NCBI GenBank assembly: GCA_019894815.1
Contig: JAGXNU010000001.1
Coordinates: 1-42,127 of the forward strand
Reading direction: 5' to 3'
Length of the DNA stretch: 42,127 nt
Source of the DNA: Promethearchaeota archaeon
GTDB lineage: Archaea; Asgardarchaeota; Lokiarchaeia; Sigyniarchaeales; SOKP01
A program made the translations under genes and the position numbers. Below the pieces are notes generated by a model. That model was not told the origin of the DNA, ran no database searches, and worked only from the letters and a program-made list of their open reading frames with translations. Positions 845-42,066 of this stretch are shown here, piece by piece (positions within the stretch are counted from its first letter, which is position 1; every line of letters begins with the position of its first letter).

Positions 845-1066
845 TCAATCCTTTAACAAACCATCAAGTAATACCTTTAATATTCCCTGTTTTTCCGATC
901 TCGCTAAAATATCCGCTTCATCAAAACACTCTAAATCACTCTTATCAAATTCTAGGCCACAACTCAAGCATCCTATCAACTCATCACGATCTAGAATTTC
1001 CTCCCTTCTCCCACATCTCGGACATCGAAATTTTTTGTCTTTCAATAATAAAACCTCTAGTGCCAT
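845..1066 (-). CDS. 73-aa zinc-ribbon protein (CPRC-x14-CLSC), paralog of 41845..42066
   Basis: Track ORF is 845..1150. The internal Met29 (ATG at 1066..1064) gives MALEVLLLKDKKFRCPRCG..., exactly 73 aa like its paralog. The 28 extra N-terminal residues of the long ORF have no counterpart in the paralog. Confidence 0.6.
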   Translation of the reverse strand: MALEVLLLKDKKFRCPRCGRREEILDRDELIGCLSCGLEFDKSDLECFDEADILARSEKQGILKVLLDGLLKD

Positions 1067-1390: not shown

Positions 1391-4300
1391 TTAAACATCT
1401 TTACCATCATATTTAACATTTCGTAAGGGGTGATGTTTTTTGAAAAAATTGGGATCCTCATGGATGTTTTTCACGAGTGTATCTCCATTTACAAAATCCT
1501 TTAAGATAAGATAATGATCAACTTGTAAGTATTCGAAGATCATGTCAAATAATTGCTTAAATTCACTTAACTCGCACTTTGGAAAATAGATTTTCATCAT
1601 TAATCCGTGAGTGAATTCTACCGGTTCATCAAATCCGTAAATGAAATACTTCCCTTCAATTTCATAGATAAAACCATAGTTAAACCAACCAAATATTTTT
1701 ATTATTGTGTTCACGGAATCTTGATTTAAATCTGGGATGATGAGATAAATGCTTTCTTGGAACCCCAAATTCTTTAAAGTTATGTAAGGGAAAATTAATT
1801 CTTTCTTCAATAAGGTTTGGATCCGTTCTACTGTTTTAACCTTCTTAGTTCCGATATAAGATTTGATATCGATAGAGCGATAATCGTAAATCTCGCAAAG
1901 ATCTTGGAATTCTGGAGAACTTAATCCATATTTAGGTTCCTCACCATTATCAGAAAACTGGAAAGTTTTTAGGTTTGGGATATTAAACTTGTACTCTTTA
2001 TTGAAAAGCACGTTTTGAAGGTGCTCTTTAAACATTATGCTATCGTAATCCCACCCCTCAGGAGTAAAATTCATTTCAAAATGAAATAATGCGTGAGTTT
2101 TTTTGATAACAAATCCACAATACTCCCGAATTTTATTTTCTGGAGCTAAAATATTATCTAATATCGGGTTATCAGATTGATTGGAGGAAAGAACATAGTC
2201 TATTAAGAATGGAATAGAATCATCGATACTTGCGGGATATTCTATTTTTAAGAAGTTAGTACCTAATAAGGACTTAAAATTAATTTGGTTTAAATCACTG
2301 GAATAGAAGTAAGTTGTAAATTTACTTAAGTTAAAGCGCTGGAATGCGGGAATGAATTTAATGGCCTTTACATGATTCTGGAAAAACAAATCCTTTTTAC
2401 TTTTAACAAATTCTTCACTTCTTAATATAATTTCTTCCATATTTAGATAAAAAGTTCTAAGTCTATCCAGAAGATCATGATCATAGATTTCATTTTCTCT
2501 AGCCTTACGATTATTCGCTAATTTCACTAATTTAATTATATCACCATCATCTGACCATAAAATCTTTTGATTCTCAAATTTTACCATTTTAAAATCCTGA
2601 TTTAAATCTTGAAAAGAACTTTCGATATACTTACCATATTGTTCATAGAGATCCTTAGTGTAAAAAAAATCTTGATTTTCATAATCATAGAAATTTCGTG
2701 TTGAAAAGCCTGTAATGAAACCGCTCCAAAGATGGTTTTTCCCATAAATCAGATTTTTTTCAAATATATTAAAAATAATTGAAATGAACAGATTTTTTTC
2801 TTTCTTTATTAACGCAGGTACAGAAATCTCTATGTGATAAAGATTTTTTTTAGTTTTTAAATCTCTTAACTTATTTATAAGTATTCTTGGAAAAATATTT
2901 GCTATTTTTGAAATATCTTTCTCAATTTCATTGTAATTTGAAATTAATAGTTGGAAATAGTCTCTTTCAAATTTAGTTGTAATAATGGTATTAATCAAAA
3001 TGGGTGCAATAATTGGAGGTTTATTAACAATATAATTCTCGATAGAGTTATCAAAAATATCAGACGTGATATCTTGAATCTGATATTCTTCATATTTTTC
3101 ACGTAATATCTTATCTTTAGCTTGAAATATATTAAATGCCAGTTTTTCATTAATAAGAATGTCAATTAATATGTTTAAATCAAATAACTTCAAAGAGGAG
3201 CAGATATCTAGTAAATTACTGCAGTATTTGAAAACTTTTACCTTTCTTAAAAAAACGGGTTTAGAATTAAAATAGGATGTGAATAAATTTTTGATGATGA
3301 ATTCAATTTGTTGTTTATTAGTTTTAAAAATCAGGTTATGTTCAATTGTCGTTGAAGGAAAATAATTTGATAAAAAATCATTTATTTCATCACAATTTTG
3401 GATTTCCTTATTTTTGATGATATTTTCTAAGTCTTTTATTACATCTAAATATATTTCAAGAACTGTTTTTAAAAAGAAAAATCCACCTTCTTTATATTTG
3501 TTGATTAAAGTAATTACTTCGGTTCTTATTTCGCTCTCTTTATATAGTTCTTTTAGATTTACTTTTAGATTACTTATCAAAGAGCGTTGAGATATAATCT
3601 CATCAAATAAATCAGATTTCAATATCTTAATACTTTCATCTCTTCTTTCAAATCCTAAACCACTGAATGAAAACCATCTAATCCGATCCAGAATTAAAAA
3701 ATCCAGAATTGATAAGTTTTCATTTACGGATTGTTCTGTGTACTCAAACTCAACCTTAGTTTCATATTTTTGTTCATATTCCTGATAATTTGGATTTGGG
3801 ATGATTTGATTAGTAAATCCCTCTTTAAAATAATTCAAATTTACCCTTTGTTTTTGATATATTCTGGAAAAAAAAGAATATTCAATTAAATAATTATTTT
3901 TTTTTAAATATTCCATTAGTTTAATGATATCATCAAAATATTTCAGAGGAAGAATTAAATATCCAAATATCGTGTTGGAAAAATCCTCCAGCGAAACTTT
4001 TGGAGAATTTATAAACGGAAAACTTTTAATAACTTTATTAATTTTAGTATAATCTAATATTGGATTAAATTTCATTACAAAAACTATTACTTCAATATTG
4101 ATTGCCCTCCAATTAATTAGAAATGAGGGTGATATAAAAGTTTTTTTTATTAATTCCATATTTTCTGTAAATTTCCTAAGACTTAACTCAGTTTTTAATA
4201 ATCCTTGCTCTTTAAAAGATTGAAAATACTTTTTATATTGCAATAAATTTTTATAATTCTTAATTTCCAAGAAGATAGTAATTATAGAGTATAAAGATTC

Positions 4301-4945
4301 AACTAATGGATTACTTGTCATTAAATTTAGTAATTTTTCTTTATATTTTTTAAAAAATATGAAGTTGAAAGAGTTATATTTGCTTCTAACTAAATCCGGG
4401 TGATCAATTAGATATTGAAAGAAAAATTGAATAGGATTTGGGTTAAATTTTAACATTTGTTCATTAAAGAATCTATCTAATCTGTCAAAATTACTTATAA
4501 AATTAAATCCCGCCGCTTCTAAGCTAATCTGCTGAATATTTTTATGTATAATGGACTTCCATTCATTTAGGTAAGGATTTTTTGAAAGAATAGTCATCAT
4601 AATTTGGTTAATAGCTAAATTTAATGATATATTATTTCTCAATTCCTCTTCCAAAAAGCATTTTAAAATTTCTCTCAAAAAAATAAATGGGAGGAATCTC
4701 AGATATTTCTTATTAATTTTAATTTTGAGCAAACCATCTTTCTTTTCTTGAATAGTTCCAAATTTGTAAAAATCAACATTTTTATCTGCTAAATTATCAA
4801 CAAGAAAAAATTGAAATTCTTTTATTTTTGGTTTAATCCCTAAATATTCTTGAAATTTATGAAGTAGATCTAGAAATATAACATTTGCATTTTTAAAATC
4901 CCTAGAAATCACGTCTATGATCTTAAGATCAGGCAGTTGAGACAT
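1391..4945 (-). CDS. 1184-aa hypothetical protein, K/I/N/F-rich, with internal repeat modules; no catalytic motif recognised
   Basis: Long uninterrupted ORF. Recurring module junctions: FISPSFLINWRAINIEVIVFV, IIAPILINTIITTKF, IKFIPAFQRFNLSKFTTYFYSSDLNQ, LIFPYITLKNLGFQESIYLIIPDLNQ. The last two share P-x5-NL-x10/11-DLNQ. A TATA-like tttatattataat lies just upstream of the ATG, suggesting a leaderless-type transcript. Confidence 0.8.
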   Translation of the reverse strand: MSQLPDLKIIDVISRDFKNANVIFLDLLHKFQEYLGIKPKIKEFQFFLVDNLADKNVDFYKFGTIQEKKDGLLKIKINKKYLRFLPFIFLREILKCFLEEELRNNISLNLAINQIMMTILSKNPYLNEWKSIIHKNIQQISLEAAGFNFISNFDRLDRFFNEQMLKFNPNPIQFFFQYLIDHPDLVRSKYNSFNFIFFKKYKEKLLNLMTSNPLVESLYSIITIFLEIKNYKNLLQYKKYFQSFKEQGLLKTELSLRKFTENMELIKKTFISPSFLINWRAINIEVIVFVMKFNPILDYTKINKVIKSFPFINSPKVSLEDFSNTIFGYLILPLKYFDDIIKLMEYLKKNNYLIEYSFFSRIYQKQRVNLNYFKEGFTNQIIPNPNYQEYEQKYETKVEFEYTEQSVNENLSILDFLILDRIRWFSFSGLGFERRDESIKILKSDLFDEIISQRSLISNLKVNLKELYKESEIRTEVITLINKYKEGGFFFLKTVLEIYLDVIKDLENIIKNKEIQNCDEINDFLSNYFPSTTIEHNLIFKTNKQQIEFIIKNLFTSYFNSKPVFLRKVKVFKYCSNLLDICSSLKLFDLNILIDILINEKLAFNIFQAKDKILREKYEEYQIQDITSDIFDNSIENYIVNKPPIIAPILINTIITTKFERDYFQLLISNYNEIEKDISKIANIFPRILINKLRDLKTKKNLYHIEISVPALIKKEKNLFISIIFNIFEKNLIYGKNHLWSGFITGFSTRNFYDYENQDFFYTKDLYEQYGKYIESSFQDLNQDFKMVKFENQKILWSDDGDIIKLVKLANNRKARENEIYDHDLLDRLRTFYLNMEEIILRSEEFVKSKKDLFFQNHVKAIKFIPAFQRFNLSKFTTYFYSSDLNQINFKSLLGTNFLKIEYPASIDDSIPFLIDYVLSSNQSDNPILDNILAPENKIREYCGFVIKKTHALFHFEMNFTPEGWDYDSIMFKEHLQNVLFNKEYKFNIPNLKTFQFSDNGEEPKYGLSSPEFQDLCEIYDYRSIDIKSYIGTKKVKTVERIQTLLKKELIFPYITLKNLGFQESIYLIIPDLNQDSVNTIIKIFGWFNYGFIYEIEGKYFIYGFDEPVEFTHGLMMKIYFPKCELSEFKQLFDMIFEYLQVDHYLILKDFVNGDTLVKNIHEDPNFFKKHHPLRNVKYDGKDV

Positions 4946-4991
4946 TATATATAATTTTTTTATTATAATATAAATTCTTTAAACTTTAGGG

Positions 4992-4999
4992 TTTAAATA
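4992..4999 (+). promoter_or_regulatory. TATA-box-like element (gTTTAAATAc) for mini-gene 1
   Basis: Lies 46-53 nt upstream of ATG 5045. The same 10-mer gtttaaatac recurs upstream of mini-gene 2 and of the orc1/cdc6-like gene. Confidence 0.45.
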
Positions 5000-5044
5000 C
5001 TTTGATAGTAACTCATTTTTACTTTACTCCATCTTGGAGGAGAG

Positions 5045-5170
5045 ATGAAAATGAGAATTGGATATAAAGGATTAACGGTTTTTACGTCATTAATCGCATT
5101 TCTTTCTCTATTACAGATTACAATGTCCTGTTTTGCTGAAACATTCCCAGGCAGCCAAGGGGGACCTTAA
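5045..5170 (+). CDS. Small ORF 1, 41 aa (39 aa if started at ATG 5051): signal-peptide-like precursor MKMRIGYKGLTVFTSLIAFLSLLQITMSCFAETFPGSQGGP
   Basis: Hand-translated; below the ORF-track size cutoff. GGAGGAG at 5036-5042 precedes it. It has a basic n-region, a hydrophobic core, a CFA/E site obeying the -3/-1 rule, a TAA stop and a following 14-T tract. Two paralogs lie downstream. Confidence 0.7.
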   Translation: MKMRIGYKGLTVFTSLIAFLSLLQITMSCFAETFPGSQGGP

Positions 5171-5197
5171 ATAAAAGGAACGCGATTGATTACTTAA

Positions 5198-5211
5198 TTT
5201 TTTTTTTTTTT
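5198..5211 (+). terminator. Oligo-T (T14) archaeal-type terminator after mini-gene 1
   Basis: Uninterrupted run of 14 T starting 28 nt after the stop codon. Confidence 0.5.
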
Positions 5212-5256
5212 GATTATCTTGATTAGTAATAATCTTTTTTTAGAGATTCAAAATAG

Positions 5257-5264
5257 TTTAAATA
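5257..5264 (+). promoter_or_regulatory. TATA-box-like element (gTTTAAATAc) for mini-gene 2
   Basis: Same motif and same spacing to the ATG as in copy 1. Confidence 0.45.
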
Positions 5265-5309
5265 CTTAGATAGTAACTCATTTTTACTTTACTCCATCTT
5301 GGAGGAGAG

Positions 5310-5435
5310 ATGAAAATGAGAATTGGATATAAAGGATTAACGGTTTTTACGTCATTAATCGCACTTCTTTCTCTATTACAGATTACAATGTCCTGTTTTG
5401 CTGAAACATTCCCAGACGGCCAAGGAGGACCTTAA
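5310..5435 (+). CDS. Small ORF 2, 41 aa (39 aa from ATG 5316): MKMRIGYKGLTVFTSLIALLSLLQITMSCFAETFPDGQGGP
   Basis: Hand-translated duplicate of ORF 1 with an intact frame. Differs by F19L, G36D, S37G and one synonymous change. Confidence 0.7.
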   Translation: MKMRIGYKGLTVFTSLIALLSLLQITMSCFAETFPDGQGGP

Positions 5436-5462
5436 ATAAAACGATCGCGATTAATTACATAA

Positions 5463-5478
5463 TTTTTTTCTTTTTTTT
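5463..5478 (+). terminator. Oligo-T terminator (T7-C-T8) after mini-gene 2
   Basis: T-tract starting 28 nt after the stop codon. Confidence 0.45.
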
Positions 5479-5502
5479 ATTTTATTTAGTAAAATTATAG
5501 GA

Positions 5503-5509
5503 GTTTAAA
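5503..5509 (+). promoter_or_regulatory. TATA-box-like element (gTTTAAATg) for mini-gene 3
   Basis: Lies 52-58 nt upstream of ATG 5561. Confidence 0.4.
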
Positions 5510-5560
5510 TGCATTCAAATGAAAATTTAGTGAATGGCTCCGATTTGGAGGTTAAAAAAG

Positions 5561-5680
5561 ATGAAATTAAGTCATAAAATGGTTTTTATTATTACAACTC
5601 TAGTTGCATTTCTTGCTCTTTTACAAGAAGCAACTTTTGGATTTGCTGAGCATTTTCCTGGTGGAGAAGGAGGACCTTAA
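5561..5680 (+). CDS. Small ORF 3, 39 aa: MKLSHKMVFIITTLVAFLALLQEATFGFAEHFPGGEGGP (diverged paralog of ORFs 1 and 2)
   Basis: Hand-translated. GGAGG at 5547-5551 sits 9 nt before the ATG. It aligns without gaps to the 39-aa form of ORF 1 with 19/39 identities, including AFLxLLQ and FAExFPGxxGGP. A T-rich tract follows. Confidence 0.65.
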   Translation: MKLSHKMVFIITTLVAFLALLQEATFGFAEHFPGGEGGP

Positions 5681-5700
5681 GCAAGTTAGGTGTAGTTATC

Positions 5701-5718
5701 TTTTTTATTTTTTTTTTT
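5701..5718 (+). terminator. Oligo-T terminator (T6-A-T11) after mini-gene 3
   Basis: T-tract starting 21 nt after the stop codon. Confidence 0.45.
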
Positions 5719-8713: not shown

Positions 8714-9852
8714 CGAGAAAAAACATCCAATTTATTAAGGTTAAAAAGGAAAAGGGAGAAGACCTAATAAAGTCATTAAATACTAATTTTAAAAAGCTTA
8801 GAATTATTCATCCGGATTACCAAATTGAATATGACGGTAATTATATTCTTTTTCCAATAAAAGACCTCACTGATGAACAATTTCATGAATTAAATAAGAC
8901 ACTTAAAAATCAATTTTCAATAGAAATCATGAATAAGAAAGGTACATCAAAACGAAAGATAGATAGACGCACTCTAGAAGATTTTTTAGAAAACACATTA
9001 CCAAATGATGTATTAAACATAATTCCGAGATCCTATGATGTTATTGGTAATATTGCAATTGTTGAGTTTGATCGCTTTTTAGAATTGAGTCAAAAAAAGA
9101 GCATTAAATATAAGAATCAAGTAGCGAGTGCAATTATACATGTCAATAAGGGATTGAAATCGGTTTATGAAAAGAAAAGTGAAATTAAAGGAGAATATCG
9201 ATTAAGGGAATTCTCGATTTTAAAAGGTCCAGACAATCCTGAAACTATTCATAAAGAAAATAAATGCTTGTTTAAACTTGATATAAAAACGACTTATTTT
9301 TCTCCCCGATTGGTGTACGAAAGAAATAGAATAGCTACAAGTCAATTTAATGAAAATGAAAACATTACTGATATGTTTGCAGGTGTAGGTCCTTTTTCAA
9401 TACAAATAGCTAAAAATCACCCGGTGAATATTTATTCTTTTGATATAAATCCCGCTGCTTGTAAATATTTAGAAGATAACGTTAGACTTAATAAAGTAAA
9501 TGACAAAATAACAGTTCATAATTTAGATGTTAAGAATTTAGTAGATACGAATAGCACGCTAGGAGAGACTTTAAAAAATAGCATGGATCGCGTCATAATG
9601 AATTTACCAGAAAAGGCGGTTAATTTTCTTGATGTTGCTTGTTTTCTTCTTAAAGAATCAGGAGGAATTATTCATTATTATCTTTTTAATGAAAAATCTT
9701 CCACTATTGAGCAGACTATTCAAAATTTAGAAAAGAAATTTGATGAGGAAAAATATCATATCGTAAAAATCTTGTCTTCAAGAAAGGTTAAAGGATATTC
9801 ACCAAAGATTGATTTATTATCTTTTGATTTATATTTAAGACTAAAAAAATGA
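8710..9852 (+). CDS. Trm5/Taw2-family tRNA methyltransferase (class I SAM-dependent)
   Basis: YDVIGNIAIVEF, FSPRLVYERNRI, SAM motif DMFAGVGPFSIQIAK, DINPAA, catalytic-loop MNLPE. Confidence 0.8.
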   Translation: MTRKNIQFIKVKKEKGEDLIKSLNTNFKKLRIIHPDYQIEYDGNYILFPIKDLTDEQFHELNKTLKNQFSIEIMNKKGTSKRKIDRRTLEDFLENTLPNDVLNIIPRSYDVIGNIAIVEFDRFLELSQKKSIKYKNQVASAIIHVNKGLKSVYEKKSEIKGEYRLREFSILKGPDNPETIHKENKCLFKLDIKTTYFSPRLVYERNRIATSQFNENENITDMFAGVGPFSIQIAKNHPVNIYSFDINPAACKYLEDNVRLNKVNDKITVHNLDVKNLVDTNSTLGETLKNSMDRVIMNLPEKAVNFLDVACFLLKESGGIIHYYLFNEKSSTIEQTIQNLEKKFDEEKYHIVKILSSRKVKGYSPKIDLLSFDLYLRLKK

Positions 9853-35911: not shown

Positions 35912-35936
35912 AACCCCCTCCCTCTGCATGGGGGTT
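35912..35936. other. G+C-rich hairpin (AACCCCC-n11-GGGGGTT) in an AT-rich spacer; terminator of the upstream gene and/or protein-binding site
   Basis: Perfect 7-bp stem with an 11-nt loop, 30 nt after the hydrolase stop and abutting the orc1-like TATA box. Confidence 0.5.
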
Positions 35937-35943
35937 TAAATAC
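35934..35943 (+). promoter_or_regulatory. TATA-box-like element gTTTAAATAc for the orc1/cdc6-like gene
   Basis: Identical 10-mer to the mini-gene promoters; 44-53 nt upstream of ATG 35987. Confidence 0.4.
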
Positions 35944-35986: not shown

Positions 35987-37147
35987 ATGATGGCTAAAGC
36001 AAAATCTTATGGAAATTATATAGGACCAAGGGCAATCTTCGATCAAAACTTTATTCCTCCACAAATTTTACACCGACAAAAAGAGGAGCATTCACTTTTT
36101 TCGGTAATGAATGATGCTATCACCGATGATTTTGGTATTAACATTCTTTATCAGGGAATAGACGGTATCGGAAAGAAAGTAATAGTCAATAAAGTCTTTA
36201 ATGATTTACTAAATCAAGATCATTTAACTTCATATAACTATAAAATTAAAGTTGATTGTAAAGAAAAAAAACTCGAAGATCTTATTATTTCACTATTAGG
36301 TGAAATGAATATAGTGTATAATTTTAAATTAGATTTTCAACAAGTCTTAAATTCTAATTTAACAGATTTGTGGAACCTCTTCAAACTTGCTTGTCAAAAA
36401 GTCAACTACAATCTTCTCATAGCTTTCTATAATGTTGAACATTTAAATCCTGAAATTTTTAAGAAATTCCTTCATTTTGGAAAGGAAAAAAACATGGTTT
36501 TAATCTCTACTATCAATAAAGTTCTAAAACCTGCTGCTTATGACTTGCTCGGTTGTTTTGACTTGAAAATTAACCTGAATTATTTTTCTTATAATCAATT
36601 ATGTGAAATTCTCCATCAAAGGATAGCCTTAGCATATACAGTAAATTTAGAAACAGATTTAGTAGAATTCATTACAGATTTAATCTTCGAACATTACGTA
36701 CCCGTACCTGGAAAAGGAGTTGATATCTTAAGAGAATTATATCTCTTATTAAACTCAAAAAAGGATCATAAAGAGGATGGATTATATGAGATCATTCAAA
36801 ATCAATTTGATCCATTACAAATGTCTGACGAATACAGCTTACTAACATATATTTCTGAAGAAAATTTTCTCACAATAATCTTTTTAGATAATTTGTCAAA
36901 TTTCTTTTTAAAAAATACGAGGTATTACATAAGTTCTCAAGAATTAAAAGAATTGTATCAAATATCTTGTGAATCGCTTGATTATGATATTTCTCTGGAA
37001 GAACTTGAAAGTTTAATAAATATGTTTCAAAATATTGGAATTTTAAGCACCTCTAAGAAAAATTTATTCAATAACTCTCGCTATTTCATAATAATTCCCC
37101 CAAAACAGCTGAAAGCAATCGTGGATGCCTTATTTACTAAATTTTAA
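35987..37147 (+). CDS. Orc1/Cdc6-like AAA+ protein with degenerate Walker A and B motifs
   Basis: N-terminal IFDQNFIPPQILHRQKEE matches the Orc1/Cdc6 signature. Walker A reads GIDGIGKK and the Walker B position reads AFYNVE. A C-terminal wH-like region is present. Confidence 0.65.
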   Translation: MMAKAKSYGNYIGPRAIFDQNFIPPQILHRQKEEHSLFSVMNDAITDDFGINILYQGIDGIGKKVIVNKVFNDLLNQDHLTSYNYKIKVDCKEKKLEDLIISLLGEMNIVYNFKLDFQQVLNSNLTDLWNLFKLACQKVNYNLLIAFYNVEHLNPEIFKKFLHFGKEKNMVLISTINKVLKPAAYDLLGCFDLKINLNYFSYNQLCEILHQRIALAYTVNLETDLVEFITDLIFEHYVPVPGKGVDILRELYLLLNSKKDHKEDGLYEIIQNQFDPLQMSDEYSLLTYISEENFLTIIFLDNLSNFFLKNTRYYISSQELKELYQISCESLDYDISLEELESLINMFQNIGILSTSKKNLFNNSRYFIIIPPKQLKAIVDALFTKF

Positions 37148-41798: not shown

Positions 41799-41808
41799 GT
41801 TTAAATAG
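41799..41808 (+). promoter_or_regulatory. TATA-box-like element gTTTAAATAg for the downstream zinc-ribbon gene
   Basis: Lies 37-46 nt upstream of ATG 41845; same core as the other promoters in the window. Confidence 0.4.
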
Positions 41809-41844
41809 TCCCTTTAAGAAGGATCTAAAAGAGATGTTTAAATA

Positions 41845-42066
41845 ATGAATGATATCAGTAAAAGTATTCTTCATTGTCCTCGATGTAAAGGATTTAAGGT
41901 CTGGGAACTTGACTCAAATATTTATTGCCCATATTGTGAACTCACATTTAATAAGACTGTTTTAAAATGTTTGAGTGATGATCTCATCTTAGCTATTGAG
42001 GAATTGGAAGGAATTCTCCGCCCTTTTGAAGAAAATGGATTTGATCTTAAACTACTCATGGGATGA
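41845..42066 (+). CDS. 73-aa zinc-ribbon protein (CPRC-x13-CPYC), paralog of 845..1066
   Basis: The post-ribbon segment aligns to the left-end paralog: ELTFNKTVLKCLSDDLILAIEELEGIL versus GLEFDKSDLECFDEADILARSEKQGIL, 12/27 identical. Confidence 0.65.
   Translation: MNDISKSILHCPRCKGFKVWELDSNIYCPYCELTFNKTVLKCLSDDLILAIEELEGILRPFEENGFDLKLLMG

What the first reader, a model, noticed from the sequence alone, without database searches (positions are those of the whole stretch)
4991..5718. Three tandem unannotated mini-genes encoding signal-peptide-like precursors with a conserved C-terminal FAExFPGxxGGP tail (possible secreted decapeptides)
The 0.9-kb gap between the 1184-aa gene and tRNA-Ile has no ORF in the track. 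It contains three same-strand cassettes, each built as TATA-like tttaaat(a), a 40-50 nt leader, GGAGG, a 39-41 codon ORF, TAA and an oligo-T tract. Products: (MK)MRIGYKGLTVFTSLIAFLSLLQITMSCFAETFPGSQGGP, the same with F19L and ...ETFPDGQGGP, and MKLSHKMVFIITTLVAFLALLQEATFGFAEHFPGGEGGP. From the second ATG all three are 39 aa and align without gaps (19/39 identical between copies 1 and 3). Each has a basic n-region, a roughly 20-residue hydrophobic core and a small-x-Ala site (CFA/E, GFA/E) compatible with signal peptidase I. Cleavage there would release 10-residue peptides E-x-F-P-x-x-x-G-G-P. Amino-acid conservation between nucleotide-diverged copies argues for real coding genes. Inference: a multi-copy secreted-peptide locus (signalling or RiPP-like peptide). 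Alternatively, because AFLxLLQ in the hydrophobic core is also conserved, these could be single-pass micro-membrane proteins or type I toxin-like peptides. I know of no described archaeal family with this tail.
Basis: partly seen in the sequence, partly recalled or inferred. Interest (0 to 1): 0.85.

Follow-up and report, generated by a model that had tools for sequence, protein, structure and literature searches.

The report
Asgard mini-genes for signal-peptide-like micropeptides
Three unannotated 39-41-codon genes in an Asgard archaeon are real, conserved genes that look like export signals fused to a tiny Gly/Pro-ended peptide, and they always sit beside one large Lrp-like protein gene, so they may be a first archaeal secreted-peptide system, though secretion is untested.

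Summary
Three same-strand mini-ORFs (5045/5051-5170, 5310/5316-5435, 5561-5680) each have a GTTTAAAT(A/G) TATA box, a GGAGG, a TAA stop and an oligo-T tract.

They are real protein-coding genes. About 30 distinct homologues in Promethearchaeota and Hermodarchaeota MAGs keep frame, length (36-43 aa) and stop position. dN/dS is 0.08-0.6.

The family matches no Pfam, NCBIfam, PADLOC or PDB entry. It is rare: 8 clusters among 1.84 billion representative proteins.

New result: every member found lies next to a homologue of the 1184-aa neighbour, usually divergently transcribed about 100-250 nt away. That neighbour is a soluble Asgard-specific protein whose model shows Lrp/AsnC-like modules.

The peptide design is a basic N-terminus, a 14-15-residue hydrophobic core ended by Q or N, a polar 7-residue stretch, a small-x-small site, and an 8-11-residue tail (aromatic, Pro, Gly-rich, C-terminal Pro). 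This fits a cleavable Sec signal peptide better than a transmembrane helix.

Best reading: exported and processed micropeptides whose expression or perception is tied to the Lrp-like neighbour. Cleavage, secretion and signalling are inferred, not shown. An uncleaved membrane microprotein is the main rival.

The parts
4991..4999 (+). TATA-box-like promoter element (GTTTAAATA) of mini-gene 1
   Evidence: The same element sits 45-60 nt upstream of the start codon of homologous mini-genes in other genomes.
5000..5035 (+). Conserved promoter-proximal / 5'-leader element (CTTTGATAGTAACTCATTTTTACTTTACTCCATCTT)
   Evidence: The TATA-to-SD stretch that includes this element is 85% identical to the L003 and L020 orthologues. 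The CDS is 72-74% identical and third codon positions only 62%. This suggests a cis-regulatory site.
5036..5040 (+). GGAGG Shine-Dalgarno-like motif of mini-gene 1
   Evidence: It lies 4 nt before ATG 5045 and 10 nt before ATG 5051.
5045..5170 (+). Mini-gene 1 CDS, (MK)MRIGYKGLTVFTSLIAFLSLLQITMSCFA|ETFPGSQGGP (alternative start 5051)
5198..5211 (+). Oligo-T tract (T14), archaeal-type terminator of mini-gene 1
   Evidence: The run length differs by one T in strain variants L001 and L002.
5256..5264 (+). TATA-box-like element of mini-gene 2
5301..5305 (+). GGAGG of mini-gene 2
5310..5435 (+). Mini-gene 2 CDS, (MK)MRIGYKGLTVFTSLIALLSLLQITMSCFA|ETFPDGQGGP (alternative start 5316). A recent duplicate of gene 1.
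   Evidence: Three nonsynonymous and one synonymous change separate it from gene 1; two of the nonsynonymous changes are in the variable tail positions.
5463..5478 (+). Oligo-T tract after mini-gene 2
5503..5511 (+). TATA-box-like element (GTTTAAATG) of mini-gene 3
5547..5551 (+). GGAGG of mini-gene 3
   Evidence: It lies 9 nt before ATG 5561.
5561..5680 (+). Mini-gene 3 CDS, MKLSHKMVFIITTLVAFLALLQEATFGFA|EHFPGGEGGP
   Evidence: (called as a gene, P0001, on ENA contigs).
5701..5718 (+). Oligo-T tracts after mini-gene 3
1391..4945 (-). Divergently transcribed 1184-aa partner gene: a soluble, Asgard-specific protein with repeated Lrp/AsnC-like (winged-helix + RAM) modules
   Evidence: homologues in Promethearchaeota and in Hermod-, Thor-, Hod- and Odinarchaeota MAGs; structure model and fold matches; no TM segment; linkage census.

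Best explanation
The three ORFs are independent, real genes. Each has its own TATA box, ribosome-binding site and oligo-T terminator.

They belong to an undescribed Asgard family of 36-43-residue precursors. Each precursor has four parts:
- a basic N-terminus;
- a 14-15-residue hydrophobic core that ends at a conserved Gln or Asn;
- a polar stretch of about 7 residues ending in a small-x-small site;
- an 8-11-residue tail, here E-x-F-P-x-x-x-G-G-P.

Proposed mechanism (inferred). The peptide inserts into the membrane after translation, with the N-terminus inside. Signal peptidase I cuts after the small-x-small site. A Gly/Pro-rich peptide of about 10 residues with a C-terminal Pro is released outside the cell. 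Paralogues within one genome then give a small repertoire of different tails.

The genes form a conserved module with a divergently transcribed, about 1180-aa, soluble protein built from Lrp/AsnC-like modules. The most likely role of that protein is regulator, and possibly ligand sensor, of the shared promoter region. The layout resembles bacterial regulator/peptide cassettes.

Shown: coding status, purifying selection, the family-wide architecture, the gene linkage, and the neighbour's fold resemblance.

Inferred: membrane targeting, cleavage, release, and any signalling or regulatory loop.
For: **Coding status**
- Nine distinct syntenic homologues keep frame, length and stop. dN/dS is 0.08-0.6, and few changes fall at codon position 2.
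- Further members came from profile searches and from six-frame HMM scans.

**Transcription signals**
- The TATA box, leader and T-tract are conserved around homologues.
- The leader is more conserved than the CDS.

**Signal-peptide design**
- Position -1 is always A, G or C, and position -3 is G, A, C, S or V, in every subfamily.
- The hydrophobic core is only 14-15 residues long.
- The next 7 residues can carry Glu (copy 3, QEATFGFA) or Arg (P0054, NVVRVSLA). That is hard to fit into a 22-residue TM helix.
- Column entropy is lowest at the -1 Ala, the +1 Glu, the Pro and the GGP end.

**Linkage to the big gene**
- Peptide-first searches returned members on 8 contigs of 5.5 kb or more. Six were inspected and lie beside a homologue of the big gene. 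For the other two (P0051, P0055) this is inferred only from matching contig lengths.
- The only 2 genuine hits among 17 in the metagenome DNA scan also lie beside it.
- Big-gene-first census: about 22 of 71 distinct loci are positive, in at least 8 clades that are 28-45% identical to the window protein.
- In L016 the other flank differs from the window, but the pair is kept.

**The neighbour**
- No TM segment.
- AlphaFold model with pLDDT 85.8.
- Best fold matches are NirDL/AhbAB and Lrp/AsnC proteins.
Against: - No signal-peptide predictor, transcript, ribosome-profiling or peptide data were available.
- The hydrophobic region shows more sequence conservation (LT..TS, AFL, LQ; ALLTAIS in distant clades) than a mere export signal needs. 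That could mean it functions in the membrane.
- A 39-aa precursor cannot use co-translational SRP targeting, and archaea lack SecA, so the export route is unclear.
- Most big-gene paralogue clades (about two thirds of loci) have no detectable mini-gene.
- The Lrp/AsnC resemblance is at fold level only (E about 3e-4 to 6e-4, TM 0.4). Pfam and hhalign give no significant sequence match.
- No peptide transporter or peptidase gene is linked.
Confidence: 0.45

Rival explanations
1. Uncleaved single-pass membrane microproteins (N-terminus inside, short Gly/Pro tail outside). They would act within the membrane, for example as modulators or subunits of a membrane complex. The conserved small-x-small and Gln positions would then serve helix packing rather than cleavage.
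For: The 19-21-residue windows have Kyte-Doolittle means of 1.85-2.0, above the usual TM threshold. The hydrophobic region carries conserved positions across clades.
Against: A Glu or Arg sits inside the would-be helix in several members. The strongest conservation is at the putative cut site and in the tail, not in the core. Copy number varies from 1 to 5 with divergent tails and decayed copies, which is unusual for a stoichiometric complex subunit. No membrane protein gene is linked; the constant partner is soluble.
Confidence: 0.3
2. RiPP-like precursors. The hydrophobic N-terminal part would be a leader bound by winged-helix modules of the 1184-aa protein. That protein would modify, chaperone or export the C-terminal core peptide.
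For: There are tandem multi-copy precursors with variable cores next to one large conserved protein. The partner contains winged-helix-type modules by fold. From general knowledge, RiPP recognition elements are winged-helix domains.
Against: No recognisable RiPP enzyme domain (radical SAM, YcaO, LanB/M, peptidase or ABC exporter) was found in the partner or within the window. The leader is a textbook basic-plus-hydrophobic export signal rather than a soluble leader. The tail has few modifiable residues.
Confidence: 0.1
3. Type I toxin-like small hydrophobic peptides that damage the membrane when expressed, held in check by an antisense RNA or by the neighbour.
For: They are small and hydrophobic, multi-copy, and show gene turnover with decayed copies.
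Against: No TTTAAAT-type promoter lies on the antisense strand. There is no significant RNA structure (z = -1.6). A strongly conserved Gly/Pro tail and cut-site-like motif are not expected for pore-forming toxins. The chromosomal position among housekeeping genes is stable. There are no PADLOC hits.
Confidence: 0.05
4. Not protein-coding: conserved small RNAs or promoter/terminator debris whose ORFs are incidental.
For: Some nucleotide stretches (the leader; the GGAGGACCTTAA end) are highly conserved.
Against: Open frames of constant length recur in about 30 distinct sequences. Differences fall mostly at codon positions 3 and 1, and dN/dS is as low as 0.08. Distant members share protein features but little DNA. 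There is no Rfam hit and no significant fold.
Confidence: 0.02

Closest known systems
Bacterial Rgg/SHP and other RRNPP peptide-regulator cassettes (SHP, Phr, PapR, PrgQ). Described from general knowledge, not tested here.
   Same: A tiny precursor gene (about 20-50 codons) lies next to, and often divergent from, a cytoplasmic helix-turn-helix regulator. The precursor has a Lys-rich N-terminus and a hydrophobic stretch, and the active peptide is the C-terminal 5-10 residues, often starting with Asp or Glu. Paralogous cassettes carry different peptides.
   Different: The partner here is about 1180 aa with Lrp/AsnC-like winged-helix + RAM modules, not an XRE-HTH + TPR receptor. No Opp/Ami importer, Eep or PptAB genes are linked. 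The host is an archaeon. No signalling has been shown.
Sec-type (signal peptidase I) signal peptides
   Same: A basic n-region, a 14-15-residue h-region, a polar c-region of about 7 residues, small residues at -3 and -1, and no Pro at +1.
   Different: The 'mature protein' is only 8-11 residues, so the precursor must be exported after translation. Cleavage is unproven.
Lrp/AsnC (FFRP) transcription regulators and the related sirohaem decarboxylases AhbA/B and NirDL. These are compared with the neighbour, not with the peptides.
   Same: Fold-level match of winged-helix + RAM (beta-alpha-beta-beta-alpha-beta) units. The arrangement is a divergent gene pair with a compact shared promoter region.
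   Different: The neighbour is a single chain of about 1180 aa with several such units plus long helical regions. No Pfam HTH_AsnC or AsnC_trans_reg match was found. DNA and ligand binding are unknown.
Small single-pass membrane microproteins (for example OST4, CydX, KdpF, AcrZ)
   Same: Their size is about 30-50 aa, with one hydrophobic segment.
   Different: Those are single-copy subunits encoded with their membrane complex. Here copies are tandem and variable, the partner is soluble, and the conserved part is an extracytoplasmic Gly/Pro tail.

Membership tests
Sec/SPase I signal peptide | Positively charged n-region | tested here: met
   There are 2-3 Lys/Arg in the first 6-8 residues of all members.
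Sec/SPase I signal peptide | h-region of about 7-15 apolar residues followed by a polar c-region of 3-7 residues | tested here: met
   A run of 14-15 apolar residues lies between Lys and Gln/Asn in most core-family members; P0047 and P0048 have longer unbroken apolar runs. It is followed by 7 residues that may include Glu or Arg.
Sec/SPase I signal peptide | Small uncharged residues at -3 and -1, and no Pro at +1 | tested here: met
   Position -1 is A, G or C and position -3 is G, A, C, S or V in all subfamilies. Position +1 is E, D, S, N or an aromatic/aliphatic residue.
Sec/SPase I signal peptide | A dedicated predictor call, or demonstrated cleavage | not testable with these tools
   SignalP and DeepTMHMM are not available, and there are no proteomic data.
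RRNPP / Rgg-SHP peptide signalling cassette | Small peptide gene adjacent to its cytoplasmic receptor/regulator gene | tested here: inconclusive
   Adjacency to one conserved soluble protein family is strict. A receptor or regulator role for that protein is not shown.
RRNPP / Rgg-SHP peptide signalling cassette | Receptor with an HTH + TPR-like repeat domain | tested here: not met
   Fold matches are to Lrp/AsnC-like proteins, not TPR proteins. No Pfam hit was found.
RRNPP / Rgg-SHP peptide signalling cassette | Oligopeptide permease-dependent re-import | not tested
   No Opp-like gene was seen among the window ORFs scanned. The rest of the genome is unknown.
Class III (prepilin/archaellin) signal peptide | [KR]-G/A cleavage site directly before the hydrophobic stretch | tested here: not met
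   Gly after the Lys occurs only in copies 1 and 2 and in P0053. Other members have I, M, L, F or V there.
Lipoprotein signal peptide | Lipobox with an invariant Cys at +1 | tested here: not met
   No conserved Cys is present. Position +1 is Glu in most core-family members.
RiPP precursor | Co-located recognisable modifying enzyme or leader peptidase/exporter | tested here: not met
   No such domain was found in the partner or in the window ORFs scanned.
Type I toxin-antitoxin | Overlapping antisense RNA gene | tested here: inconclusive
   No TTTAAAT promoter motif lies on the opposite strand. There are no transcript data.
Archaeosortase/exosortase sorting signals (PGF-CTERM and similar) | Motif, then a C-terminal TM helix, then a basic tail at the end of a larger protein | tested here: not met
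   The order is reversed here (basic, hydrophobic, then motif), and the whole protein is only about 40 aa.
Lrp/AsnC family (for the neighbour) | Winged HTH followed by a RAM domain | tested here: inconclusive
   Foldseek top hits are NirDL (E 6e-4) for the full model, and PH1519, 1ri7, PH0061, AhbA/B and Mtb LrpA (E 3e-4 to 4e-3) for the C-terminal 200 aa. However, the domain model has pLDDT 60 and TM about 0.4. Sequence profiles do not match.

The most novel reading that the evidence does not exclude
This would be the first ribosomally encoded secreted-peptide communication system in Archaea, found in the lineage closest to eukaryotes. Mini-precursors would be exported and cut to peptides of about 10 residues ending in Pro. 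These would be sensed, directly or after uptake, by a giant multi-module Lrp/AsnC-like protein that controls the shared divergent promoter. Paralogous peptide/receptor pairs would provide separate channels.
Probability: 0.2. Interest if true: 0.9.

Novelty: new variant of a known kind. Interest (0 to 1): 0.74.

Why it matters
[quoted passage not shown] The one archaeal signal named in the paper I read (PMC11760428) is a small molecule, a carboxylated AHL. I found no report of a secreted peptide signal in Asgard archaea.

This family is missed by most annotation. In the same-strain ENA contigs only copy 3 had a called gene.

It gives a concrete and cheap test: synthetic decapeptides, peptidomics and promoter-binding assays can show whether Asgard archaea export tiny processed peptides and whether a new class of giant Lrp-like proteins responds to them.

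Even if the peptides stay in the membrane, this is a conserved two-gene module of unknown function, found in Promethearchaeota and Hermodarchaeota MAGs. It also assigns a first genomic partner to a large, multi-paralogue Asgard protein family.

Tried and rejected
- Rfam scan of the window found only the two tRNAs.
- RNA folding of transcripts 1 and 3 gave z = -1.6, not significant, so I dropped the sRNA reading.
- The sigma-70 promoter and hairpin-terminator scan is uninformative for an archaeon.
- The first word-indexed protein search with the three window peptides found only copy 3 itself.
- The first genome-contig scan with the tool's own patterns found nothing. The window's species therefore seems absent from the GTDB representative genomes.
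A hand-made DNA pattern for the 10-residue tail then gave 2 true hits and 15 chance hits.
- Pfam, NCBIfam, PADLOC and PDB sequence searches of the peptides and of the neighbour gave nothing.
- The isolated C-terminal domain model had low confidence (pLDDT 60), so I treat its Lrp/AsnC hits as supportive only.
- I rejected class III signal peptide, lipobox and archaeosortase-signal readings on sequence grounds.
- I looked for mini-genes near the other big-gene paralogue clades (about 45 loci) and recognised none.
Full report
**1. Observation**

- Copies 1 and 2 lie inside a 221-nt direct repeat that is 95% identical.
- Copy 3 shares 19 of 39 residues with copy 1.
- Each cassette has TTTAAAT (4992, 5257, 5504), GGAGG (5036, 5301, 5547), a TAA stop and a T-run (5198-5211, 5463-5478, 5701-5718).
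- The ...GGP-stop tail occurs nowhere else in the six-frame translation of the window.
- For copy 3, the GGAGG-supported start is 5561, not the upstream ATG at 5534.

The window is about 28% G+C. It encodes archaeal and Asgard-type proteins: L15e, RNase P Rpp14 and p30, Roadblock/LC7, NFACT, archaeosine TGT and Trm5/TYW2. Homologues of the big neighbour carry names of Promethearchaeota, Lokiarchaeota and Thorarchaeota MAGs.

**2. Are they genes?**

Two ENA contigs carry the same locus at 99.9% identity. There are no coding changes in the mini-genes, so these contigs are not an independent test.

I therefore fetched loci through homologues of the 1184-aa protein. In genomes where that protein is 77, 62, 60, 48 and 47% identical, the same position just upstream on the opposite strand holds one or two ORFs of 38-41 codons. 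They have the same architecture and the same stop position.

Among nine distinct sequences, Nei-Gojobori dN/dS is 0.08-0.6. Differences concentrate at codon positions 3 and 1. TATA box, leader and T-tract are conserved around them. RNA folding is unremarkable and Rfam has no match. These are protein-coding genes under purifying selection.

**3. Size and shape of the family**

A profile of the three window peptides, run against 1.84 billion representative proteins, found only 8 clusters. A 16-sequence profile against the 5.8-billion-protein set found 16 proteins.

Examples (the bar marks the putative cut site):
- ...SQMAAA|EFFPSGGQGGP
- ...SSAAMA|EFYPSGQGGP
- ...RVSLA|SWYPADGQGGP
- ...RVGLA|WFPADGQGGP

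A six-frame HMM and a simple heuristic run over 98 fetched loci (1.59 Mb) revealed more distant members. Many of them start with TTG. Examples:
- MKIRTKISILLALLTAISAWLQKSIIGFG|FSGGEGTP
- MKKLNKFTIILALIVTLSIWFQFSASGLA|FGAGEGNP
- (M)KIFKVYRILLFVLANIAFILPMMSIVLG|WKGDGGGP
- MKIGTKVSLILALLTAISTFLGFAATGLA|ISVPGGGGIP (Hermodarchaeota)

The shared design has four parts:
- 2-3 basic residues at the N-terminus;
- 14-15 apolar residues ending at Gln or Asn;
- about 7 more polar residues ending in small-x-small;
- an 8-11-residue tail with aromatic or hydrophobic residues, usually Pro, a Gly-rich run and a C-terminal Pro.

Column entropy is lowest at the -1 Ala, the +1 Glu, the Pro and the GGP end. No Pfam, NCBIfam, PADLOC or PDB sequence matches exist. 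Literature searches found no description.

**4.

Starting from the peptides:
- The peptide searches returned members on 8 contigs of 5.5 kb or more. Six were inspected, and each lies beside a homologue of the 1184-aa gene.
- For P0051 and P0055 this is inferred only from matching contig lengths.
- In L016 the opposite flank is an SMC-like gene instead of the tRNA and kinase genes, yet the pair is retained.
- A DNA pattern for the 10-residue tail, scanned over 241 million metagenome records, gave 17 stretches. Fifteen are chance hits on unrelated contigs of 39-71% G+C. The two genuine hits both lie beside the big gene.

Starting from the big gene:
- 78 loci from species-representative genomes, together with the loci fetched earlier, gave 71 distinct full-length big proteins.
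- Mini-genes were detected at about 22 of them.
- They occur in at least eight clades that are 28-45% identical to the window protein, including all loci of the window's own clade.
- They usually lie 35-250 nt upstream on the opposite strand. In some clades they lie just downstream instead (L056, L068, L018).
- About two thirds of the paralogue loci have none that I could recognise.

Copy number per locus is 1-5. Different subtypes sit side by side, and decayed copies occur (L008, L020), so there is birth-and-death turnover.

**5. The neighbour**

- It has no Pfam, NCBIfam or PADLOC match.
- It has no transmembrane segment; the highest 19-residue Kyte-Doolittle mean is 1.44.
- An AlphaFold model built from 34 homologues is confident (pLDDT 85.8, pTM 0.84). 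It shows four beta-alpha-beta-beta-alpha-beta units, each preceded by helices, plus long helical regions.
- Foldseek's only hits with E <= 0.001 are the Lrp/AsnC-like sirohaem decarboxylase NirDL. The Lrp/AsnC protein PH0061 and ACT/RAM/PII-type folds follow.
- A separate, low-confidence model of the last 200 residues (pLDDT 60) has Lrp/AsnC-family proteins as eight of its nine top hits, over about 150 columns.

I therefore call the neighbour Lrp/AsnC-like by fold, not a member of that family.

**6. Mechanism**

The n/h/c layout and the strictly kept small residues at -3 and -1 are the defining features of a signal peptidase I substrate.

A 22-23-residue membrane helix from the Lys to the -1 Ala would have to bury Gln-Glu (copy 3) or Asn-x-x-Arg (P0054, P0055, L022). 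A 14-15-residue core alone is short for a stable span. This favours a cleavable signal over a membrane anchor, but it does not prove it.

Cleavage would release ETFPGSQGGP, ETFPDGQGGP and EHFPGGEGGP. The N-terminal Glu and C-terminal Pro would both slow exopeptidases; that point is from general knowledge and is an inference.

The compact divergent promoter region lies between the big gene's start and the first TATA box, which are 46 nt apart. The stretch from the TATA box to the GGAGG is 85% identical between genomes, while third codon positions are 62% identical. Both features point to regulated expression. A winged-helix protein encoded divergently is the obvious candidate regulator.

The layout resembles Rgg/SHP and other RRNPP cassettes of Firmicutes (general knowledge). 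However, the partner's fold differs and no transporter is linked. This is therefore a 'works like' analogy, not membership.

**7. Rivals**

- An uncleaved microprotein is the main rival. The hydrophobic part is more conserved than export alone requires.
- A RiPP-like precursor handled by the big protein is possible, but no enzyme domain is recognisable.
- A type I toxin reading lacks an antisense promoter and does not explain the tail.
- A non-coding reading is essentially excluded.

**8. Verdict**

The genes are real and form an undescribed family. The family is tied to an undescribed large Asgard protein family. The signal-peptide/secreted-decapeptide reading is the best-supported one, but it remains unproven.

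Noticed in passing
window 1391-4945 (-); loci L021-L098: The 1184-aa neighbour belongs to an Asgard-specific family found in Promethearchaeota and in Hermod-, Thor-, Hod- and Odinarchaeota MAGs. A genome can carry several paralogues, for example three on contig CAZALK010000001.1. The family has no Pfam or NCBIfam model. The confident AlphaFold model shows about four Lrp/AsnC-like winged-helix + RAM units in one chain.
   Followed up: partly
window 5000-5035 (and 5265-5300): The roughly 36-nt stretch between the TATA box and the GGAGG (CTTTGATAGTAACTCATTTTTACTTTACTCCATCTT) is more conserved across genomes than the coding sequence. The TATA-to-SD stretch is 85% identical, against 72-74% for the CDS and 62% at third codon positions. 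It is a likely operator or 5'-UTR element.
   Followed up: partly
window 845-1066 (-) and 41845-42066 (+): Two paralogous 73-aa zinc-ribbon proteins (CPRC...CxxC; 39% identity, E 9e-10). One lies just downstream of the 1184-aa gene and is conserved there in relatives. The other lies just downstream of the 1483-aa SMC_N-like gene. In locus L016 the SMC-like gene sits directly beside the mini-genes.
   Followed up: partly
L008 about 9550-9670 (-); L020 8937-9420 (+): There are decayed family copies. The L008 'MRVLKNFRF...' copy has lost its SVAYG-W-PGGQGGP tail to a T-rich replacement. L020 carries a copy interrupted by a stop codon. This indicates birth-and-death turnover of the mini-genes.
   Followed up: yes
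L041, L047, L067, L071, L024, L095, L098 (upstream of the big gene): Distant family members appear to start at TTG rather than ATG, which helps explain why gene callers miss them. L018 has a member that ends in ...GGQGGV instead of Pro, and L043 has one that ends in ...SGGGG.
   Followed up: partly
window 5197-5211: The oligo-T terminator tract after mini-gene 1 differs by one T between the window and the near-identical ENA contigs L001 and L002. It is the only difference within the mini-gene region.
   Followed up: yes
window 35934-35942, 41799-41807, 41836-41844: The same GTTTAAATA motif precedes other ORFs by about 40-55 nt, for example the ORF starting at 35987. This is consistent with it being this organism's TATA-box consensus.
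   Followed up: no
L014 5089-5232 (-) (= L091): In the 40%-identity relative without a recognisable mini-gene, the equivalent upstream slot holds an ATG-less frame ending in ...NGDGGIP-stop. It may be a remnant or a very divergent member.
   Followed up: no
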